A stretch of 64,000 bases of DNA from Minisyncoccota bacterium. GTDB taxonomy: Bacteria; Patescibacteriota; Microgenomatia; UBA1400; PJMF01. This document shows, one piece after another, positions 38,894 through 61,477 of the stretch. The stretch spans positions 3,810-67,809 of the forward strand of contig VFLK01000009.1 in NCBI GenBank assembly GCA_009885085.1. The letters are read 5' to 3'. Each line of letters begins with the position of its first letter. The stretch's first letter is position 1. Under the pieces are notes generated by a model. The model was not told the DNA's origin and searched no databases. It saw nothing but the letters and a program-made list of their open reading frames with translations. Both the position numbers and the translations under genes were made by a program.

Positions 38894-39706
38894 ATGCCGA
38901 AAACCGATTTAAGTTCTAAAAATTCATTTTCTTTTTCAAGTTTCACTAACTTTTTTTCAGAAAATTTTGTATTAATATTAATGGCTCTAGCCTTTTTATT
39001 TGGTGGATTCTTCTTAGGATCTATTTGGACAGAAAATAAAATGCTAAAAAGTGGATTCGGATCTGGTTCTGGAGTCGGCGCTGGTGCCGGTGCCGGTGCA
39101 GCAGATCCAGCAGCAGCAGCTCCAGCAGCTGATGCAAGAGATTTGACTATTCCTGGCCTAATAAGCAAGGGCAAAAAATTAGGAATAAAGGAGGCTGATC
39201 TTCAAACCTGTATCGATAGTGGCGAGATGGCCGCAAGAGTCACTGCTGATGCAGCTGGTGGTGCAGCCGGTGGTATCACAGGAACTCCTGGCACAGTAAT
39301 CGTCGTAAATGGTGTTCCAGCAGAATTAATTCCTGGAGCTTTGCCATACGAGCAAGTTAAACCAATGATTGATTTCTATGTAAATGGTGGCGCAATCGAT
39401 CCAGTTAAAAGTGGTCCAGTAGCAGGAATGCCAGCCGTAACAGATGCTGATCATTACAAAGGTAAATCAGGTGTTAAAATAGTTTTAGTTGAATACTCAG
39501 ATTATGAATGCCCATTCTGTGAGAGATTTCACCCAACTATGCTAAATGTAATGAAAGATTACAGTAAAGATGTTGCTTGGGTATTAAGAAGTTTCCCATT
39601 ATCATTCCATGCATCAGCTCAAAAGGCTGCTGAAGCTGCAGAATGTGTAGCTAAATTAAAGGGAAATGATGCCTTCTGGGAATATTCAGACGCATTATTT
39701 AACTAA
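38894..39706 (+). CDS. Membrane-anchored DsbA-like thiol:disulfide oxidoreductase
   Basis: N-terminal TM helix, Gly/Ala-rich linker (GSGSGVGAGAGAGAADPAAAAPAA), thioredoxin-fold CPFC active site (YSDYECPFCERFHP). Confidence 0.8.
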   Translation: MPKTDLSSKNSFSFSSFTNFFSENFVLILMALAFLFGGFFLGSIWTENKMLKSGFGSGSGVGAGAGAGAADPAAAAPAADARDLTIPGLISKGKKLGIKEADLQTCIDSGEMAARVTADAAGGAAGGITGTPGTVIVVNGVPAELIPGALPYEQVKPMIDFYVNGGAIDPVKSGPVAGMPAVTDADHYKGKSGVKIVLVEYSDYECPFCERFHPTMLNVMKDYSKDVAWVLRSFPLSFHASAQKAAEAAECVAKLKGNDAFWEYSDALFN

Positions 39707-52689: not shown

Positions 52690-55600
52690 ATGAAAAATAT
52701 TATCAACTTCTCTGCACTAGAAATTCGCATCGCATCACCAGACACAATTAAGTCTTGGTCATTTGGCGAAGTCAAGAAACCAGAGACAATCAATTACAGA
52801 TCACTTAAGGCAGAAAAAGATGGCCTATTCGACGAGAAAATTTTTGGCCCTATCAAAGACTATGAGTGTTACTGTGGAAAATATAAGAGAATTCGTTATA
52901 AGGGTATAATTTGTGACAAATGTGGAGTCGAAGTGACTCAGTCAAAAGTTAGACGTGAGAGAATGGCTCACATTACTTTGTCATCTCCAGTAGCTCACAT
53001 TTGGTTTTTCAAAGGTGCTCCTTCTAAATTGTCTTTACTTTTAGATATTTCACCAAGAAATTTGAGTTCAATTATTTATTTTTCAAAATACTTGGTTCTT
53101 GATATTGATGCAGACGAAAAAACAGAAATTTCTGATCGCTTAAATGTCGATTTAGTAGCTGCTCAAGATGAACTCAAAGATGAAGCAAAAGTTGGAATGG
53201 AGTTAGTAAAAGCTACCTTAACCGAAGACAAAGCTAGTTTAAATGAAAAAGTAACTAGTAAAGAAACTCTCCAATTAAAATTGACAGAATCCGAGTTAAA
53301 AGCAAAAAACAAACTAGTAGCTCTTAAGAAACAACTAGAAGTGAAGCTAGATCAGACTGAAGAAATTTACAAAACCATTAAACAAATGGTCAAGAAAATT
53401 GGAAAAGGAATGATCTTAACCGAAGACGAGTATCTAAAACTTGATGATTACAATGCTGCCTCTCACTTGAGAGTCGGAATGGGTGCAGAAAGTATATTAG
53501 AACTCGCAGAAGCCATCGATTTGAATGCCTTGGTTGTCAAACTAAGAGAAGAAATCGAAGAATCAAAAGGTGCTAAGCTAGTAAAAGCAATTAAACGTTT
53601 GAGAGTTGCCGAAGGGTTAAGAAAAGCCAAGATAAAACCATCTTGGATGTTCATGACCGTTCTACCGGTTATCCCTCCAGATTTAAGACCTATGGTTCAA
53701 CTTTCTGGTGGTAGATTTGCTACCTCAGATCTTAATGATTTATACAGAAGAGTTATCAATAGAAATAATCGTTTGAAACACTTAATCGATTTAGGTGCTC
53801 CAGAAATTATTTTGAGAAATGAAAAAAGAATGCTTCAAGAAGCAGTCGACTCATTAATTGATGGTTCAAGTGCAAGACAAACAAGAAGAAGACAAACAAG
53901 AAGACCACTAAAATCTCTTTCTGAAATGTTGAAAGGTAAACAGGGTCGTTTCCGTCAAAATCTTCTAGGTAAACGTGTTGACTATTCAGGACGTTCAGTT
54001 ATCGTTGTCGGTCCAGAATTGAAACTTAATGAATGCGGTTTGCCAAAAGATATGGCGCTAGAAATGTTTAAACCATATGTTTTGAGAGAATTAATTGTCA
54101 ACGGAACAGCTCCTAATGTTAAGAGTGCAAAACACCTAATCGAACGACACGAGCCAGAAGTTTATGATATTTTAGAAGAAGTTACTAAGAATCATCCAGT
54201 TATTCTAAATCGTGCTCCAACCTTACATAAGCTTGGTATGCAGGCATTTTACCCTATCTTGATAGAGGGAAATGCTATTAGATTACATCCATGCGTTTGT
54301 TCTGGTTACAATGCTGACTTTGATGGTGACCAAATGGCTGTTCACGTACCTTTGACCAAAAAAGCTCAACAAGAATCTATCGATTTATTAATGGCAACAA
54401 ATAATTTGCTTAAACCAGCTAATGGAGAGCCAATTACTATTCCAAATAAAGAGATGGCAATGGGTATTTATTACCATACAGTTGTAGATAATAAATTTAA
54501 GGTCTTCCCAGGAGTATTTTCATCTAAAGATGAAGCTTATCACGTATACCAAATTGGCAAACTTGAGCTTAGACAATTAGCAAAAGTTAGAATTGCCTCA
54601 CTAGGTAAAATTATTGAAACTACAGTTGGAAGACTTCAGTTCAATGATTTATTACCAGCTGAATTCGGTTTTATCAATGAAGCTGTAGGTGCAAAGAAGA
54701 TTAAACAATTAGTCACTTCTGCAATTAAAGAATTTGACAAACAACGTGTCGCAGATCTAATTGACGCTATTAAAAACTTAGGTTTTGAAGCAGCAACAAT
54801 TTCTGGTATTTCAGTTTCTGTTAGTGACTGTGAAATGATTGAAAATAAAGATGAAATCATTGCAGCTGCTAATAAAAAAGTTGAAGAAATTCAAGAACAA
54901 TACAATGAAGGTATGATCGCACTTGAAGAGAGAAAAAGACTTTCATTTGATGTTTGGATCGACACAACTGAGGATATTGCAGAGAAAACTTGGAATTCAT
55001 ATTCCGAAGACAATGCTGTTAAAGTTTTAATTGAGTCAGGTGGAACTCGTGCATCTAAAGATCAGGTTAAACAACTTGCTGCAATGCGTGGTTTAGTGGT
55101 TGACCCTAATGGTAATATCGTTGAAATGCCTACTAAGTCTAACTTTAGAGAAGGTTTGACAATTTTCGAATATGTCACTTCAGCTAGAGGTTCACGTAAA
55201 GGTTTGACCGACTCAGCTATCAAAACAGCTGATGCAGGTTACCTTACACGTCGTTTGTGTGATGTTTCTCATGATGCAATTATTAGATTGGAAGATTGTA
55301 AAACTGAAGAATTTATCACAATTACAGACGAAGATAGAACTGATGTTTTTGCAACAAGAATTGCAGGCAGAATTTTAGCAACAGATATTGTTCTTAATAA
55401 GAAAGTAGTCGCTGAAAAAGGCACATTAATAACAATTGAGTTAGCTAAGGATTTAGTAAAAGCTGGATTAAAAACAGCAGATGTTAGATCTCCTCTTACT
55501 TGCGAGGCTGCAAAGGGTCTTTGTGCTACATGTTATGGTATTGATTTCTCAACATCAAAAATGATTGAACTCGGTGTTCCAGTTGGAATTGTGGCTGCAC

Positions 55601-56379
55601 AATCTATTGGAGAGCCAGGTACACAGCTTACAATGAGAACTAAGCATAGTGGAGGTATCTTGGGTGCTGACGTGACTCAAGGTTTGCCACGTGTTGAAGA
55701 GTTACTTGAAGCTAGAAACCCAAAGAATCAAGCTATCATTAGCGAGATTGCTGGAAAAGTTTCAGTAGAAGAAGGTGACAAAGAAATTATCGTTACTGTC
55801 AGAACAACTTCATCACCAGTCGAAGAAGTTGAGTACAAGCTTTCTGTAAATGCAGAGTTACTTATTAAAGATGGTGACTTAATTCATGTTGGTCAACAGT
55901 TGACCGCAGGATCTGTCAGTCTTAAAGAGTTAGCTCTTGTAAAAGGTTTGCTCCAAGCTCAACAGTACACGATTAATCAAGTACAAGCTGTCTATGAATC
56001 ACAAGGTATTCCTATTCATGATAAACATTTTGAAACTATTATCAGAAAAATGTGTGATAAGCTTCAAATTGAATCTGCAGGAGACACTGATTTCTTAACT
56101 GGCGAAGTTATTGAAAAGACCAAGTTTATTGAAGCAAATGATGAAGCAATGGCCGCAGGTGGAGAACCAGCAACAGCTAAGGTTCTATTCTTGGGAATTA
56201 CCAGATCTTCATTGTTCACTGCATCTTGGTTATCAGCTGCTTCTTTCCAACACACTAAGAATGTCTTAACTGATGCATCTGCAGCAGGTAAGATTGACTA
56301 CTTGGATGGTTTGAAAGAAAATGTCATCATTGGTAGATTAATTCCAACCAGTAAAGAGAGAGCAAGTATTGAAATGTAA
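52690..56379 (+). CDS. rpoC: DNA-directed RNA polymerase subunit beta'
   Basis: Zn-finger CYCGKYKRIRYKGIICDKCGVEV, catalytic NADFDGDQMAVHVP, 1229 aa. Confidence 0.97.
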   Translation: MKNIINFSALEIRIASPDTIKSWSFGEVKKPETINYRSLKAEKDGLFDEKIFGPIKDYECYCGKYKRIRYKGIICDKCGVEVTQSKVRRERMAHITLSSPVAHIWFFKGAPSKLSLLLDISPRNLSSIIYFSKYLVLDIDADEKTEISDRLNVDLVAAQDELKDEAKVGMELVKATLTEDKASLNEKVTSKETLQLKLTESELKAKNKLVALKKQLEVKLDQTEEIYKTIKQMVKKIGKGMILTEDEYLKLDDYNAASHLRVGMGAESILELAEAIDLNALVVKLREEIEESKGAKLVKAIKRLRVAEGLRKAKIKPSWMFMTVLPVIPPDLRPMVQLSGGRFATSDLNDLYRRVINRNNRLKHLIDLGAPEIILRNEKRMLQEAVDSLIDGSSARQTRRRQTRRPLKSLSEMLKGKQGRFRQNLLGKRVDYSGRSVIVVGPELKLNECGLPKDMALEMFKPYVLRELIVNGTAPNVKSAKHLIERHEPEVYDILEEVTKNHPVILNRAPTLHKLGMQAFYPILIEGNAIRLHPCVCSGYNADFDGDQMAVHVPLTKKAQQESIDLLMATNNLLKPANGEPITIPNKEMAMGIYYHTVVDNKFKVFPGVFSSKDEAYHVYQIGKLELRQLAKVRIASLGKIIETTVGRLQFNDLLPAEFGFINEAVGAKKIKQLVTSAIKEFDKQRVADLIDAIKNLGFEAATISGISVSVSDCEMIENKDEIIAAANKKVEEIQEQYNEGMIALEERKRLSFDVWIDTTEDIAEKTWNSYSEDNAVKVLIESGGTRASKDQVKQLAAMRGLVVDPNGNIVEMPTKSNFREGLTIFEYVTSARGSRKGLTDSAIKTADAGYLTRRLCDVSHDAIIRLEDCKTEEFITITDEDRTDVFATRIAGRILATDIVLNKKVVAEKGTLITIELAKDLVKAGLKTADVRSPLTCEAAKGLCATCYGIDFSTSKMIELGVPVGIVAAQSIGEPGTQLTMRTKHSGGILGADVTQGLPRVEELLEARNPKNQAIISEIAGKVSVEEGDKEIIVTVRTTSSPVEEVEYKLSVNAELLIKDGDLIHVGQQLTAGSVSLKELALVKGLLQAQQYTINQVQAVYESQGIPIHDKHFETIIRKMCDKLQIESAGDTDFLTGEVIEKTKFIEANDEAMAAGGEPATAKVLFLGITRSSLFTASWLSAASFQHTKNVLTDASAAGKIDYLDGLKENVIIGRLIPTSKERASIEM

Positions 56380-56440
56380 ACTTATTTTTCAGTCATGGCT
56401 TTGTAGCCGCTGATTATAAGTTAAAACTTCGCAATAAAAA

Positions 56441-56466
56441 ATCCCGCCAGAAATGGCGGGATTTTT
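56441..56466 (+). terminator. Rho-independent terminator after rpoC
   Basis: 9-bp GC-rich stem atcccgcca / tggcgggat with a gaaa loop, followed by ttttt. Confidence 0.8.
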
Positions 56467-56481
56467 GGATATAAATGGATC

Positions 56482-56925
56482 TTGGAATTGGAGGCGCAAG
56501 TCTCCTCTCTCCTGGATGACAACAAAATCCTTGTTGAAGAGTCTGCTACACTTTATGAGCAGCTAGCCAATTTTGATTACAATAATACTGTGATCAAGAT
56601 AGTGGACAAGCACGGTCTTTTGAATGAAGACCTTCTGCTTGGTCCAGCATATGTTGTGCTGGAAGATGAGCTCTTCTCAAAAAATGGAGTAGCTCGCCGA
56701 GTCAGCACCCTGCTGGAAGCAAGCAGTAGAAACACCCTGTGGCTGTTTGATAATACCACGGGGCAGCGTACATACCTGAAGGTTGAGGCTGGCGAAACCA
56801 TTATTTTTATGGCTTCACAAGCGAATACTGCAGGTGAAATTTTCCTGCAGTATGAAGTCTGTTATACCAATAACAACTTCAGCTGCACCAGTGATCTAGT
56901 GCAGACAGATATCAAAATCAAATAA
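56482..56925 (+). CDS. Hypothetical 147-aa protein encoded by a compositionally foreign (GC-rich, CTG/CAG/GCG-codon) segment inserted between rpoC and rpsL
   Basis: Intact ORF (MELEAQVSSLLDDNKILVEES...LVQTDIKIK) with ~45% GC against ~33-35% in flanking genes; Leu is coded mainly by CTG and Gln by CAG, unlike the TTA/CAA bias elsewhere; no family recognised. Confidence 0.5.
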   Translation: MELEAQVSSLLDDNKILVEESATLYEQLANFDYNNTVIKIVDKHGLLNEDLLLGPAYVVLEDELFSKNGVARRVSTLLEASSRNTLWLFDNTTGQRTYLKVEAGETIIFMASQANTAGEIFLQYEVCYTNNNFSCTSDLVQTDIKIK

Positions 56926-56954
56926 GAAAAAGTAACCAAGTTATGAAATGTGAA

Positions 56955-56982
56955 AAGCCCCAGCGCAAGCCGGGGCTTTTTC
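56955..56982 (+). terminator. Rho-independent terminator after the atypical ORF
   Basis: aagcccc ... ggggctt GC-rich hairpin followed by ttttt. Confidence 0.75.
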
Positions 56983-57028
56983 ACGCATTAATCTATATAA
57001 TTCCACAAGACACAAAATTTAAATGTTA

Positions 57029-57037
57029 TGATATAAT
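57029..57037 (+). promoter_or_regulatory. Extended -10 promoter element (TGaTATAAT) for the rpsL-rpsG-fusA-tuf operon
   Basis: tgatataat at 57029-57037, 35 nt upstream of the rpsL ATG; a weak -35 (agacac). Confidence 0.5.
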
Positions 57038-57071
57038 CAGTGTTCGTGTTATTTTATTGGAGTAATTATTT

Positions 57072-57485
57072 ATGCCTACAATTAATCAGTTAATCAGAAA
57101 GGGAGGTCGCAAACCAAACCCTAAGAGAATTAAAGCTCAAGCGCTTCGCAGAAGTTTTAACTCAAATACTGGAAAACAGATTAAAACCACTAATCCACAA
57201 AAACGTGGTGTGTGTACTGTGGTCAAAACAATGACTCCTAAGAAACCTAACTCAGCACTTCGTAAAGTTGCTCGTGTTAGACTTTCTAATAAAATGGAAG
57301 TCACTGCTTACATCATGGGTGAAGGTCATAGTTTGGCCGAACACAGTATCGTTTTGGTTAGAGGCGGAAGAGTTAAAGATCTTCCTGGTGTGAAGTATCA
57401 CATTGTTAGAGGTAAGTACGATGCTACTGGAGTAAGCAACAGAAAAACTTCACGTAGTAAATATGGTGTAAAGAAAAACGGTTAA
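57072..57485 (+). CDS. rpsL: 30S ribosomal protein S12
   Basis: [14 protein letters not shown]...[11 protein letters not shown]...[10 protein letters not shown]. Confidence 0.97.
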
Positions 57486-61429: not shown

Positions 61430-61448
61430 GTAATTATTAAAATTAGGC

Positions 61449-61477
61449 TTCACCCCGCACTTTTTATGCGGGGTGAA
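61449..61477 (+). terminator. Stable 11-bp hairpin after tuf (candidate terminator/attenuator; weak U-tract)
   Basis: ttcaccccgca-cttttta-tgcggggtgaa followed by aagttt; a full T-run is absent, so termination may be partial. Confidence 0.4.

What the first reader, a model, noticed from the sequence alone, without database searches (positions are those of the whole stretch)
56380..57000. Foreign-composition gene cassette between rpoC and rpsL, bracketed by two intrinsic terminators
A 147-aa ORF (56482-56925) sits in the RNA polymerase / str-operon junction, where an extra gene would not be expected. Its GC content (~45%) and codon usage (CTG Leu, CAG Gln, GCG Ala, AGC Ser) contrast sharply with every other gene in this window (~33-35% GC, TTA/CAA-biased). 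Two GC-rich rho-independent terminators flank it exactly (56441-56466 and 56955-56982), and a fresh extended -10 promoter for rpsL follows at 57029. The protein has no family I can recognise (no signal peptide or TM; two Cys near the C-terminus). This looks like a recent horizontal or artificial acquisition into the most conserved locus of the genome. It could be a small regulator or toxin, possibly acting on RNAP or the ribosome, carried by a mobile or engineered cassette.
Basis: seen in the sequence. Interest (0 to 1): 0.8.

Follow-up and report, generated by a model that had tools for sequence, protein, structure and literature searches.

The report
Truncated hypervariable surface-protein gene cassette
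The odd-composition ORF between rpoC and rpsL is the beheaded, probably dead remnant of a small membrane-anchored protein gene found only in one genus-level group of Patescibacteria, where it occupies this same spot and differs greatly between strains.

Summary
ORF 56482-56925 is the only synonymous-site outlier among 46 genes in the window (GC3 0.47 versus 0.25). It lies between the two strongest terminator hairpins on the + strand.

It is not an artefact, an engineered insert, or demonstrably a recent foreign arrival. It belongs to an orphan family of about 8 sequences among 15 billion proteins, all from closely related Patescibacteria ("Ca. Woesebacteria" MAGs). All but one distant paralog sit between rpoC and rpsL.

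Full-length members have their own sigma-70 promoter, a conserved structured 5'UTR, a signal anchor or lipoprotein signal, a coiled-coil stalk and a two-Cys beta domain.

The window copy lost its promoter, 5'UTR, start codon and export signal in a deletion between two GGATCTTGGA repeats. It is most likely a recent pseudogene.

The locus is strain-variable. The closest relatives include empty sites. Conspecific contigs with 97-99% identical flanks carry alleles only 57-79% identical, and those alleles are mosaics.

Every allele keeps flat codon usage (ENC 57 versus 41.6 for host genes). The composition anomaly therefore belongs to the family and does not date the acquisition. Its cause is unexplained, and so is the protein's function.

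The parts
52690..56379 (+). rpoC (1229 aa), the left core flank. Its last codon and stop (ATG TAA) belong to the 'occupied' haplotype; empty-site relatives end in CTC/CTA TAG.
56380..56394 (+). Residual native rpoC-rpsL spacer (ACTTATTTTTCAGTC). It appears homologous to the 16-nt spacer of the empty-site relatives L084 and L085 (10 of 15 matches to L084). The left edge of the insert is inferred to lie just after it.
   Evidence: inference from manual alignment
56395..57025 (+). Remnant of the accessory cassette (about 631 bp) that is absent from the empty-site relatives. It runs: left arm, T1, deletion junction, truncated gene X, T2, right arm.
56437..56466 (.). T1, a bidirectional intrinsic terminator (A-tract, TCCCGCCA-GAAA-TGGCGGGA, T-tract). 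It ends rpoC. In L086, L087 and L088 the convergent 604-aa gene ends about 20 nt beyond the T1 hairpin, so T1 probably terminates it too. L092 and L093 carry a compensatory G-C to A-T change in the stem.
56477..56486 (+). GGATCTTGGA, the microhomology at the deletion junction. In L001 the same 10-mer occurs twice, 454 bp apart: once just after T1 and once at codons 28-31 of X. The window keeps a single copy, which joins T1 directly to codon about 28.
56479..56925 (+). 5'-truncated gene X, with homology to residues 28-176 of P0002. The listed ORF starts at TTG 56482, which is the internal Leu codon of the ancestral ...RILELE... motif. It encodes a coiled-coil stalk plus a beta domain with invariant C127 and C135. 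No promoter, SD or ATG lies upstream.
56950..56984 (.). T2, an intrinsic terminator (core AGCCCCAGC-GCAA-GCCGGGGCT at 56956-56977, then a T-run). It ends X and insulates rpsL. Other alleles carry the compensatory variant CCTCGGC/GCCGAGG.
57026..57037 (+). TTATGATATAAT, the native extended -10 promoter of rpsL. It is identical in occupied and empty relatives, and the right edge of the insert lies immediately upstream of it.
57072..57485 (+). rpsL (S12), the right core flank. Occupied haplotypes share an AAT insertion between the SD and the ATG.

Best explanation
SHOWN. The segment is what remains of a lineage-restricted accessory cassette in the rpoC-rpsL spacer of one genus-level group of Patescibacteria. 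An intact cassette runs in this order: bidirectional terminator T1; in some strains a 604-aa orphan gene on the opposite strand; a TTGACA-17-TATAAT promoter; a conserved, structured 5'UTR of about 200 nt; gene X; terminator T2; and then the native rpsL promoter. Gene X encodes 172-188 aa: an N-terminal signal anchor or lipoprotein signal, a coiled coil of about 35 residues, and a beta-rich domain of about 110 residues with two invariant Cys. In the window, everything from just after T1 to codon about 28 of X is missing. The junction lies at a 10-bp sequence that is a direct repeat in the relative L001.

INFERRED. A microhomology-mediated deletion removed the promoter, 5'UTR, SD, start codon and export signal. 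The 147-codon ORF is therefore a recently inactivated pseudogene, still open only because the event is young. The intact protein is tethered to the outer face of the membrane, with the beta head displayed on a stalk. The locus is under diversifying or frequency-dependent selection, and alleles are exchanged by homologous recombination through the highly conserved rpoC and rpsL flanks. This would account for deeply diverged mosaic alleles within one species, for empty sites and for truncations. The flat synonymous composition is a long-standing trait of the family, possibly caused by recombination-associated GC-biased conversion or by selection. It is not a timestamp of recent foreign origin.
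For: Family and synteny. Only about 8 distinct homologs were found, and 7 of them, counting the window's allele, lie between rpoC and rpsL.

Deletion. L001 has T1, then AAATGGATCTTGGAA, then 454 bp, then cGGATCTTGGAgTTGGAG. The window reads AAATGGATCTTGGAATTGGAG.

Export signals and Cys pair.

Structure model. pLDDT 84.7, with a helix at residues 2-34 followed by 9 strands.

Coding constraint. pN 0.12-0.39 is below pS 0.46-0.88 in every allele pair.

Patchy distribution. L084 is among the closest relatives (RpoC C-terminal 600 aa 96.7%, S7 99.4% identical) and is empty. L085 is also empty.

Within-species hypervariability. L001, L086, L088 and L091 have flanks 97.4-99.2% identical over 2.1 kb upstream and up to 4 kb downstream. 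Their X alleles are 57-79% identical in protein, with pS 0.51-0.72 over the whole gene and 0.56-0.81 in the beta domain. Promoter, 5'UTR and T2-leader remain 94-100% identical.

Mosaicism. Breakpoints differ between allele pairs, with max-chi-square p<=0.002 in four pairs. Nucleotides 76-260 of the window allele are about 71-91% identical to the L086 allele and about 51-69% identical elsewhere.

Composition. GC3 is 0.44-0.52 in all seven spacer alleles, against 0.20-0.29 for neighbouring genes. Four-fold sites are near uniform, ENC is 57 versus 41.6, and positions 1 and 2 are host-like.

Terminator covariation.
Against: The 147-codon ORF has no stop or frameshift, so residual function cannot be excluded. 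The window-versus-L086 comparison gives dN/dS 0.42, higher than other pairs. That fits relaxation, but it is not a test.

No full-length allele close to the window's was found, so the age of the deletion is unknown.

Surface exposure and diversifying selection are inferred from sequence features and population pattern only. Pairwise dN/dS is below 1, and synonymous saturation makes it imprecise.

The cause of the GC3 anomaly was not tested. Repeated import from an unsampled GC-neutral reservoir is not excluded.
Confidence: 0.72

Rival explanations
1. Recent horizontal acquisition from a GC-richer donor. On this view the cassette, with its own terminators, arrived recently, and its composition reflects the donor.
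For: GC3 is 0.47 versus 0.25 and codon usage is atypical. The cassette is absent from close relatives L084 and L085 and from all more distant Patescibacteria examined. T1 and T2 are unusually strong hairpins for this window.
Against: No homolog outside the clade was found in the 5.8-billion-cluster and 1.84-billion-representative searches, or in plasmids, phages, viral contigs or E. coli genomes. Seven alleles at saturated synonymous divergence all keep GC3 0.44-0.52 inside AT-rich genomes. A distant paralog at another locus also shows a raised GC3 of 0.38. Composition at positions 1 and 2 equals the host's. Usage is flat (ENC 57) and shows no recognisable donor bias.
Confidence: 0.13
2. The truncated ORF is a functional, neofunctionalised cytoplasmic protein. 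It would be expressed by read-through of T1 from the strong rpoBC operon and initiated at TTG 56482 or 56488, and might act on the transcription or translation machinery.
For: The ORF is intact over 147 codons. The identical sequence occurs in a second dataset. A gene caller called it from TTG 56488 (P0001).
Against: The ORF sits 15 nt downstream of the strongest terminator in the window, and no promoter-like site lies between T1 and the ORF. No SD is within useful spacing, and the 'start' is an internal Leu codon of the ancestral gene. All homologs are exported and have a conserved Cys pair. Relatives lose the gene outright.
Confidence: 0.1
3. Alleles are generated by a locus-specific diversification mechanism, such as a DGR-type retroelement, gene conversion from silent cassettes, or another targeted mutator. 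On this view they are not old alleles kept by selection and recombination.
For: The boundaries between near-identical flanks and about 35-40% diverged coding sequence are sharp. Synonymous sites are near uniform and saturated. By general knowledge, DGRs are common in CPR bacteria.
Against: Differences occur at all bases and all codon positions, with pS above pN, and there are indels. That is not A-specific first- and second-position mutagenesis. Many columns have A conserved in all alleles. The 64-kb window has no X-like repeat or template and no Y[AVMILC]DD reverse-transcriptase motif in any ORF of 150 aa or more. Breakpoints differ between allele pairs, as expected for recombination mosaics.
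Confidence: 0.05
4. Assembly chimera, contamination or an artificial construct.
For: The composition changes abruptly at terminator-like boundaries.
Against: L003 (Logan assembly of SRR9952633) is 100% identical over 1016 bp spanning the rpoC 3' end, T1, X, T2 and the rpsL 5' end. The same architecture occurs in JGI, NCBI and Logan contigs from other samples. There is no vector, plasmid or E. coli similarity.
Confidence: 0.01

Closest known systems
Strain-variable surface-protein loci with mosaic alleles between conserved core genes, such as pneumococcal pspA/pspC or meningococcal porA/tbpB-type antigen genes (cited from general knowledge, not tested here)
   Same: Flanks are near identical within a species while the coding alleles are deeply diverged. 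The alleles are segmental mosaics. The product is exported or anchored. Null and truncated variants occur in the population.
   Different: There is no sequence or structural relationship. The host is an uncultivated Patescibacteria lineage. The protein is tiny (about 175 aa). The locus lies between rpoC and rpsL. All alleles show flat codon usage against a strongly AT-biased genome.
Small accessory 'islets' in integration hotspots flanked by core genes (a concept from comparative genomics of bacterial HGT hotspots; general knowledge)
   Same: The same inter-core-gene site is empty in some genomes and holds different content in others: X alone, X plus a 604-aa gene, or a truncated X. A more distant relative holds an unrelated membrane ORF there. 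No mobility gene is present.
   Different: The content is essentially one endemic gene family in many alleles, not diverse cargo. The flanks are the RNA polymerase and str operons.
Diversity-generating retroelement (DGR) target proteins of CPR bacteria
   Same: A small exported protein in a CPR genome whose C-terminal domain is hypervariable.
   Different: There is no template repeat, no RT in the window and no adenine-specific pattern. Variation spans the whole gene and is dominated by synonymous change.
ybxF/rplGB (L7Ae-like) between rpoC and rpsL in Bacillus and relatives
   Same: It is an extra small gene at the same junction (an 87-aa ORF in L083). An occupant at this position therefore has precedent.
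   Different: ybxF is a conserved cytoplasmic ribosome-associated protein with host-typical composition and is unrelated in sequence. X is exported, clade-restricted and hypervariable.
ZapB (the name JGI gives to P0002) and Rz-like spanins or holins (weak PHROG hits)
   Same: A coiled-coil segment and, for spanins, an N-terminal membrane anchor followed by a coiled coil.
   Different: Pfam gives no ZapB hit for P0002. The PHROG hits have E 0.03-0.12 and cover only the TM and coiled-coil part. X has an additional Cys-containing beta domain, and there is no phage context.

Membership tests
Orphan 'X' family (P0002, P0003, P0004, P0009, P0010 = KA111_01080, P0011; distant member P0005 = KA089_01675) | Sequence homology across the coiled coil and beta domain, including the invariant C-terminal motif CYTNN..C..T.I..K | tested here: met
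   E-values of 7e-44 to 3e-87 and 48-61% identity to spacer alleles. Invariant columns include C127, Y128, T129, N130, N131 and C135.
Orphan 'X' family | Location between the rpoC stop and the rpsL promoter, bracketed by T1 and T2 | tested here: met
   The exception is the distant paralog P0005.
Orphan 'X' family | N-terminal export signal (signal anchor or lipobox) | tested here: not met
   All full-length members have one. The window copy starts at the equivalent of residue 28, so it is a truncated member.
Orphan 'X' family | Own sigma-70-type promoter and a conserved 5'UTR of about 200 nt | tested here: not met
   Present in L001, L086, L088, L091, L092 and L093. Absent from the whole window.
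Recently acquired foreign DNA (horizontally transferred islet) | Composition atypical for the host | tested here: met
   GC3 0.47 versus 0.25 +/- 0.03, and the codon log-likelihood is below every host chunk.
Recently acquired foreign DNA (horizontally transferred islet) | Patchy presence among close relatives | tested here: met
   L084 and L085 are empty. L092, L093 and the group A contigs are occupied.
Recently acquired foreign DNA (horizontally transferred islet) | Homologs in a plausible donor outside the lineage | tested here: not met
Recently acquired foreign DNA (horizontally transferred islet) | Mobility signatures (integrase or transposase, terminal repeats, target-site duplication) | tested here: inconclusive
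   The spacer holds no further ORF on the + strand and only shadow ORFs on the - strand. The only repeats in the window are the T1 arms. No clear target-site duplication was seen by eye at 56395 and 57025.
Diversity-generating retroelement target | A template repeat (TR) near-identical to the variable region, plus a reverse transcriptase | tested here: not met
   There is no second copy of any X segment in 64 kb, and no YxDD motif in long ORFs (a crude test). The rest of the genome is not available.
Diversity-generating retroelement target | Allelic differences confined to template adenines, mainly at codon positions 1 and 2 | tested here: not met
   Differences occur at all bases and positions, pS exceeds pN, and there are indels.
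Rho-independent (intrinsic) terminators (T1, T2) | GC-rich stem-loop followed by a U-tract, more stable than chance | tested here: met
   dG -21.1 and -22.5 kcal/mol, z -5.3, and 0 of 200 shuffles as stable. They rank first and second on the + strand.
Rho-independent (intrinsic) terminators (T1, T2) | Stem maintained by compensatory change across relatives | tested here: met
   T1 reads CCCGCC/GGCGGG in most loci and CCCACC/GGTGGG in L092 and L093. T2 reads CCCCAGC/GCCGGGG or CCTCGGC/GCCGAGG.
ZapB (JGI name of P0002) | Match to the ZapB Pfam model, and a cytoplasmic coiled-coil protein | tested here: not met
   The Pfam scan of P0002 lists no ZapB hit. P0002 has an N-terminal hydrophobic anchor.
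Ig-like / PPC beta-sandwich domains | Significant profile or structural match | tested here: inconclusive

The most novel reading that the evidence does not exclude
The rpoC-rpsL cassette may be a dedicated diversification locus. On this reading, a mechanism not yet described keeps randomising the X coding sequence between fixed conserved boundaries (the structured 5'UTR and T2). Candidates are targeted mutagenesis or programmed allele exchange, possibly guided by the conserved 5'UTR RNA or the flanking hairpins. This would explain both the extreme within-species divergence and the flat synonymous composition in a strongly AT-biased genome.
Probability: 0.07. Interest if true: 0.85.

Novelty: new member of a known kind. 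Interest (0 to 1): 0.48.

Why it matters
Atypical composition is routinely read as evidence of recent horizontal transfer. Here the anomaly is confined to synonymous sites. It is shared by all anciently diverged alleles of a family endemic to one lineage, and it coincides with a recombination-mosaic, presence/absence-polymorphic locus. That makes the locus a clean natural case for asking what maintains GC-neutral codon usage in an AT-rich genome: biased gene conversion, selection, or a special mutational process.

Biologically, it points to a small, previously undescribed and probably surface-displayed protein family that varies strongly between strains of an uncultivated Patescibacteria lineage. 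A protein of this kind might mediate, or be targeted in, host or phage interactions in these episymbiont-like bacteria.

For annotation, the window ORF should be flagged as a truncated pseudogene and not as a 147-aa hypothetical protein.

Tried and rejected
- DNA searches with blastn (word 11) of 56380-57070 against E. coli genomes, plasmids and phages found no match. tblastn of P0010 against plasmids and phages found none. A viral-contig scan with the family alignment found none.
- Family libraries gave nothing significant. Pfam, PHROGs and PADLOC were run on X alleles, and Pfam and PADLOC on the 604-aa neighbour.
- Rfam matched only sub-threshold hits to the terminator hairpins.
- The consensus terminator scan missed T1 and T2. 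I replaced it with folding and an energy-ranked scan.
- An exact look-up of the window's S12 protein in the contig index found nothing on record.
- The MAFFT three-way alignment misplaced the deletion gap. I fixed the junction by eye and by exact-word search.
- A search for silent X cassettes or a DGR template in the window found none.
- A third profile search added no new family members.
- Two literature searches found nothing about this locus.
Full report
1. OBSERVATION

The ORF at 56482-56925 (+, 147 codons, TTG start) is real. Its GC is 43.7% and its GC3 is 0.473. The 46 long ORFs of the window have GC3 0.251 +/- 0.027, with a maximum of 0.32. No in-frame 444-nt chunk of any host gene exceeds 0.378. 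The codon-usage log-likelihood under the host table is -0.175, against a host mean of +0.20 and a worst host chunk of +0.01. It is the only synonymous-site outlier in 64 kb.

Both flanking hairpins fold strongly. T1 (56437-56466) has dG -21.1 kcal/mol, and T2 (about 56950-56984) has -22.5. Both have z about -5.3, and no shuffle out of 200 folded as well. They rank first and second on the + strand among the 1613 T-run-adjacent sites scored on both strands of the window. The rpsL extended -10 (TG at 57029-30, TATAAT at 57032-37) is present.

2. THE HOST AND THE NORMAL STATE OF THIS JUNCTION

The window comes from a Patescibacteria (CPR) genome. The nearest species representatives by S12 are a "Patescibacteria group bacterium" (88%) and Ca. 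Pacebacteria, Microgenomates and Curtissbacteria MAGs. In 11 of the 12 closest genome-collection relatives examined, the rpoC-rpsL spacer is 1-161 nt and holds no gene. The exception, L007, holds an unrelated 200-aa membrane ORF. Bacillus has its known small ybxF-type gene there. So an occupant is unusual at this junction but has precedent.

3. X IS A TINY FAMILY ENDEMIC TO THIS LINEAGE AND FIXED TO THIS SITE

Three word-indexed searches of 5.8 billion clusters and one exhaustive HMMER profile search of 1.84 billion representatives found only about 8 distinct relatives. None was found in plasmids, phages, viral contigs or E. coli genomes. Context look-ups show that six of them (P0002, P0003, P0004, P0009, P0010, P0011) also lie between rpoC and rpsL, on contigs from JGI, NCBI ("Ca. 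Woesebacteria") and Logan. One distant paralog (P0005, about 30% identical) lies elsewhere in its genome.

An independent Logan contig (L003) is identical to the window over 1016 bp spanning both junctions. Artefact, contamination and engineering are therefore excluded.

4. ANATOMY OF AN INTACT CASSETTE

In L001, L086, L088, L091, L092 and L093 the order is as follows:
- the rpoC stop and about 15 nt of native spacer;
- T1;
- in L086, L087 and L088 only, a 604-aa orphan gene on the minus strand that ends about 20 nt beyond the T1 hairpin, which suggests T1 works in both directions;
- a TTGACA-17-TATAAT promoter;
- a conserved 5'UTR of about 200 nt;
- an SD and ATG;
- gene X (172-188 aa);
- T2;
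- about 45 nt of right arm, then the rpsL TTATGATATAAT element.

Full-length proteins begin in one of two ways. Some have a positively charged stretch followed by a hydrophobic anchor (for example MKRNIALAIFALAILFLAG). Others have a lipobox (FFIASC, FFTASC). A heptad-like helical segment follows, and then a beta-rich domain ending in the invariant CYTNN..C..T.I..K motif.

My reading, which is an inference, is a membrane-tethered stalk-and-head protein on the cell exterior with a disulfide in the head.

5. WHAT HAPPENED IN THE WINDOW

In L001 the 10-mer GGATCTTGGA occurs twice, 454 bp apart. The first copy lies right after T1 (AAATGGATCTTGGAAAATT...). The second lies at codons 28-31 of X (cGG ATC TTG GAg TTG GAG). 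The window reads ...T1...AAATGGATCTTGGAATTGGAG..., which is the left context joined to the right context through a single copy of the repeat.

Everything between the two copies is therefore absent: promoter, 5'UTR, SD, ATG and the signal anchor. No copy of the 5'UTR exists anywhere in the window. The listed TTG "start" is the internal Leu codon of ...RILELE.... It lies 15 nt downstream of the strongest terminator in the window, with no promoter-like site in between and no usable SD.

The most economical reading is a microhomology-mediated deletion that produced a promoter-less, export-incompetent pseudogene. The ORF remains open because the event is recent. Residual function cannot be ruled out without expression data.

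6. THE LOCUS IS STRAIN-VARIABLE, AND THE GENE IS HYPERVARIABLE WITHIN A SPECIES

A metagenome scan with the rpsL leader found two relatives with empty sites (L084, L085). Each has only 59 nt from the rpoC stop to the rpsL ATG. L084 is among the window's closest relatives in the flanking genes: RpoC C-terminal 600 aa 96.7%, S12 97.8%, S7 99.4%, EF-G 96.6% identical, and about 90-92% at nucleotide level. The occupied L001 group is more distant, at about 84-86% nucleotide identity.

Occupied loci share haplotype marks just outside the insert. One is the last rpoC codon (ATG or ATT, where the empty sites have CTC or CTA). The other is an AAT insertion between the rpsL SD and ATG. Within about 100 nt of the junction, the window is closer to L001 than to L084.

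The most striking result concerns four contigs from different samples: L001, L086, L088 and L091. Their flanks are 97.4-99.2% identical over 2.1 kb upstream and up to 4 kb downstream, so they are conspecific. Yet their X alleles are only 57-79% identical in protein. In the beta domain pS is 0.56-0.81, which is saturated, and pN is 0.14-0.30. Their promoter, 5'UTR and T2-leader remain 94-100% identical.

Divergence is segmental, and the breakpoints differ between pairs. L086 and L088 differ by 3% in codons 1-53 and by 40% afterwards. L001 and L088 are similar through codon 91. Max-chi-square gives p<=0.002 in four pairs. The window allele is itself a mosaic. Its nucleotides 76-260 are about 71-91% identical to the L086 allele. 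Its T2 region matches the L091 variant. The rest is about 51-69% identical to any allele. Close relatives of the window (L092, L093) carry lipoprotein-type alleles only 48-50% identical to it.

pN is below pS in every pair, so X is a real coding gene under purifying selection on a scaffold. The pattern fits old allelic lineages shuffled by homologous recombination through the very conserved flanks and kept by diversifying or frequency-dependent selection, with frequent loss. It does not fit a DGR. Changes affect all bases and codon positions, there are indels, A is conserved in many columns, and the window holds neither a template repeat nor an RT motif.

7. THE COMPOSITION ANOMALY, REINTERPRETED

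All seven spacer alleles have GC3 0.44-0.52, while their neighbouring genes have 0.20-0.29. The 604-aa neighbour has 0.21, and the distant paralog has 0.38. Pooled four-fold sites are A .20, C .27, G .21, T .32, against host values of A .37, C .12, G .07, T .43. Positions 1 and 2 match the host. ENC is 57.0 versus 41.6.

The signal is therefore flat synonymous usage and not a recognisable donor bias. It has persisted through saturating synonymous divergence inside AT-rich genomes. It cannot date a recent acquisition.

The candidate causes are untested. They are GC-biased conversion at a recombination-prone, mismatch-rich locus, selection on codon usage or mRNA, an unusual local mutational process, or repeated import from an unsampled reservoir.

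8. COMPARISON WITH KNOWN SYSTEMS

In behaviour, the locus resembles mosaic surface-antigen loci and small islets in core-flanked hotspots. It fails the DGR tests. It is not ZapB, the name JGI gives P0002, and the spanin and holin PHROG hits are insignificant. The window ORF is a member of the orphan X family by homology and synteny, but it lacks two family features: the export signal and its own promoter and 5'UTR.

9. VERDICT

The mechanistic guesses are not supported: a recent foreign or engineered cassette, or a regulator or toxin acting on RNAP or the ribosome. The feature in the window is a truncated allele of a new, clade-restricted, probably surface-displayed, hypervariable protein family. 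Its function is unknown. I commit to [quoted passage not shown], at about 0.7 for the structural and evolutionary account and about 0.5 for the surface-variation role.

Interest is moderate. The window copy itself is a pseudogene. The locus-level pattern, extreme within-species divergence combined with flat codon usage in an AT-rich CPR genome, is unusual and can be tested.

Noticed in passing
L086 5815-6040; L001 3055-3274; L092 2560-2795; L093 366-592; L089 5620-5835 and 11895-11700(-). Absent from the window.: Every full-length X allele is preceded by a conserved leader of about 200 nt. So is the distant paralog P0005, which shares 71-74% leader identity although its protein is only about 30% identical to the spacer alleles. 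A second copy in L089 lies on the minus strand near small minus-strand ORFs. The leader has an invariant AAAACGCACAUUA stretch and a long hairpin (UGAGUAGCA...UGCUACUCA) with compensatory changes; 12 of 54 predicted pairs covary. No Rfam family matches. It may be an undescribed cis-regulatory RNA.
   Followed up: partly
L086 3878-5692 (-), L087 2535-4349 (-), L088 2720-4534 (-): A 604-aa orphan gene lies convergent with rpoC and divergent from X, in only some conspecific contigs. It has host-like composition (GC3 0.21), no Pfam or PADLOC hit, and a CPCLNCGY motif near the C-terminus. No remnant of it is found in L001, L091 or the window.
   Followed up: partly
window 57026-57071, and the same element in L001, L084, L085, L086, L088, L091 and L092: The rpsL -10-to-ATG leader is essentially invariant across genomes that differ by about 15% elsewhere. 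The one difference is an AAT indel between the SD and the ATG, which separates occupied loci from empty ones perfectly. This suggests either strong constraint on the leader or haplotype blocks that move together with the cassette.
   Followed up: partly
L007 5238-5840 (+): A more distant Patescibacteria MAG carries an unrelated 200-aa multi-TM ORF in the same rpoC-rpsL spacer. The junction may be a recurrent landing site for small membrane-protein genes in this phylum.
   Followed up: no
window about 61440-61475: A very strong GC-rich hairpin (TTCACCCCGCA...TGCGGGGTGAA, -22 kcal/mol) lies immediately after tuf. It shows that this genome does use GC-rich intrinsic terminators at the ends of highly expressed operons.
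   Followed up: no
L001 2893-2952 (just after T1): The T1-proximal copy of GGATCTTGGA in L001 sits inside a short ORF (MDLGKLTDITLKLLSIFGV*) and a segment of about 110 bp that L086 and L091 lack. It could be the scar of an earlier rearrangement at this locus.
   Followed up: no
window 38894-39706: This is the highest bulk-GC stretch of the window (0.48 over 444 nt). It lies in an ORF whose GC3 is an ordinary 0.23. Bulk GC alone would have mis-ranked it above X; only synonymous-site measures isolate X.
   Followed up: partly
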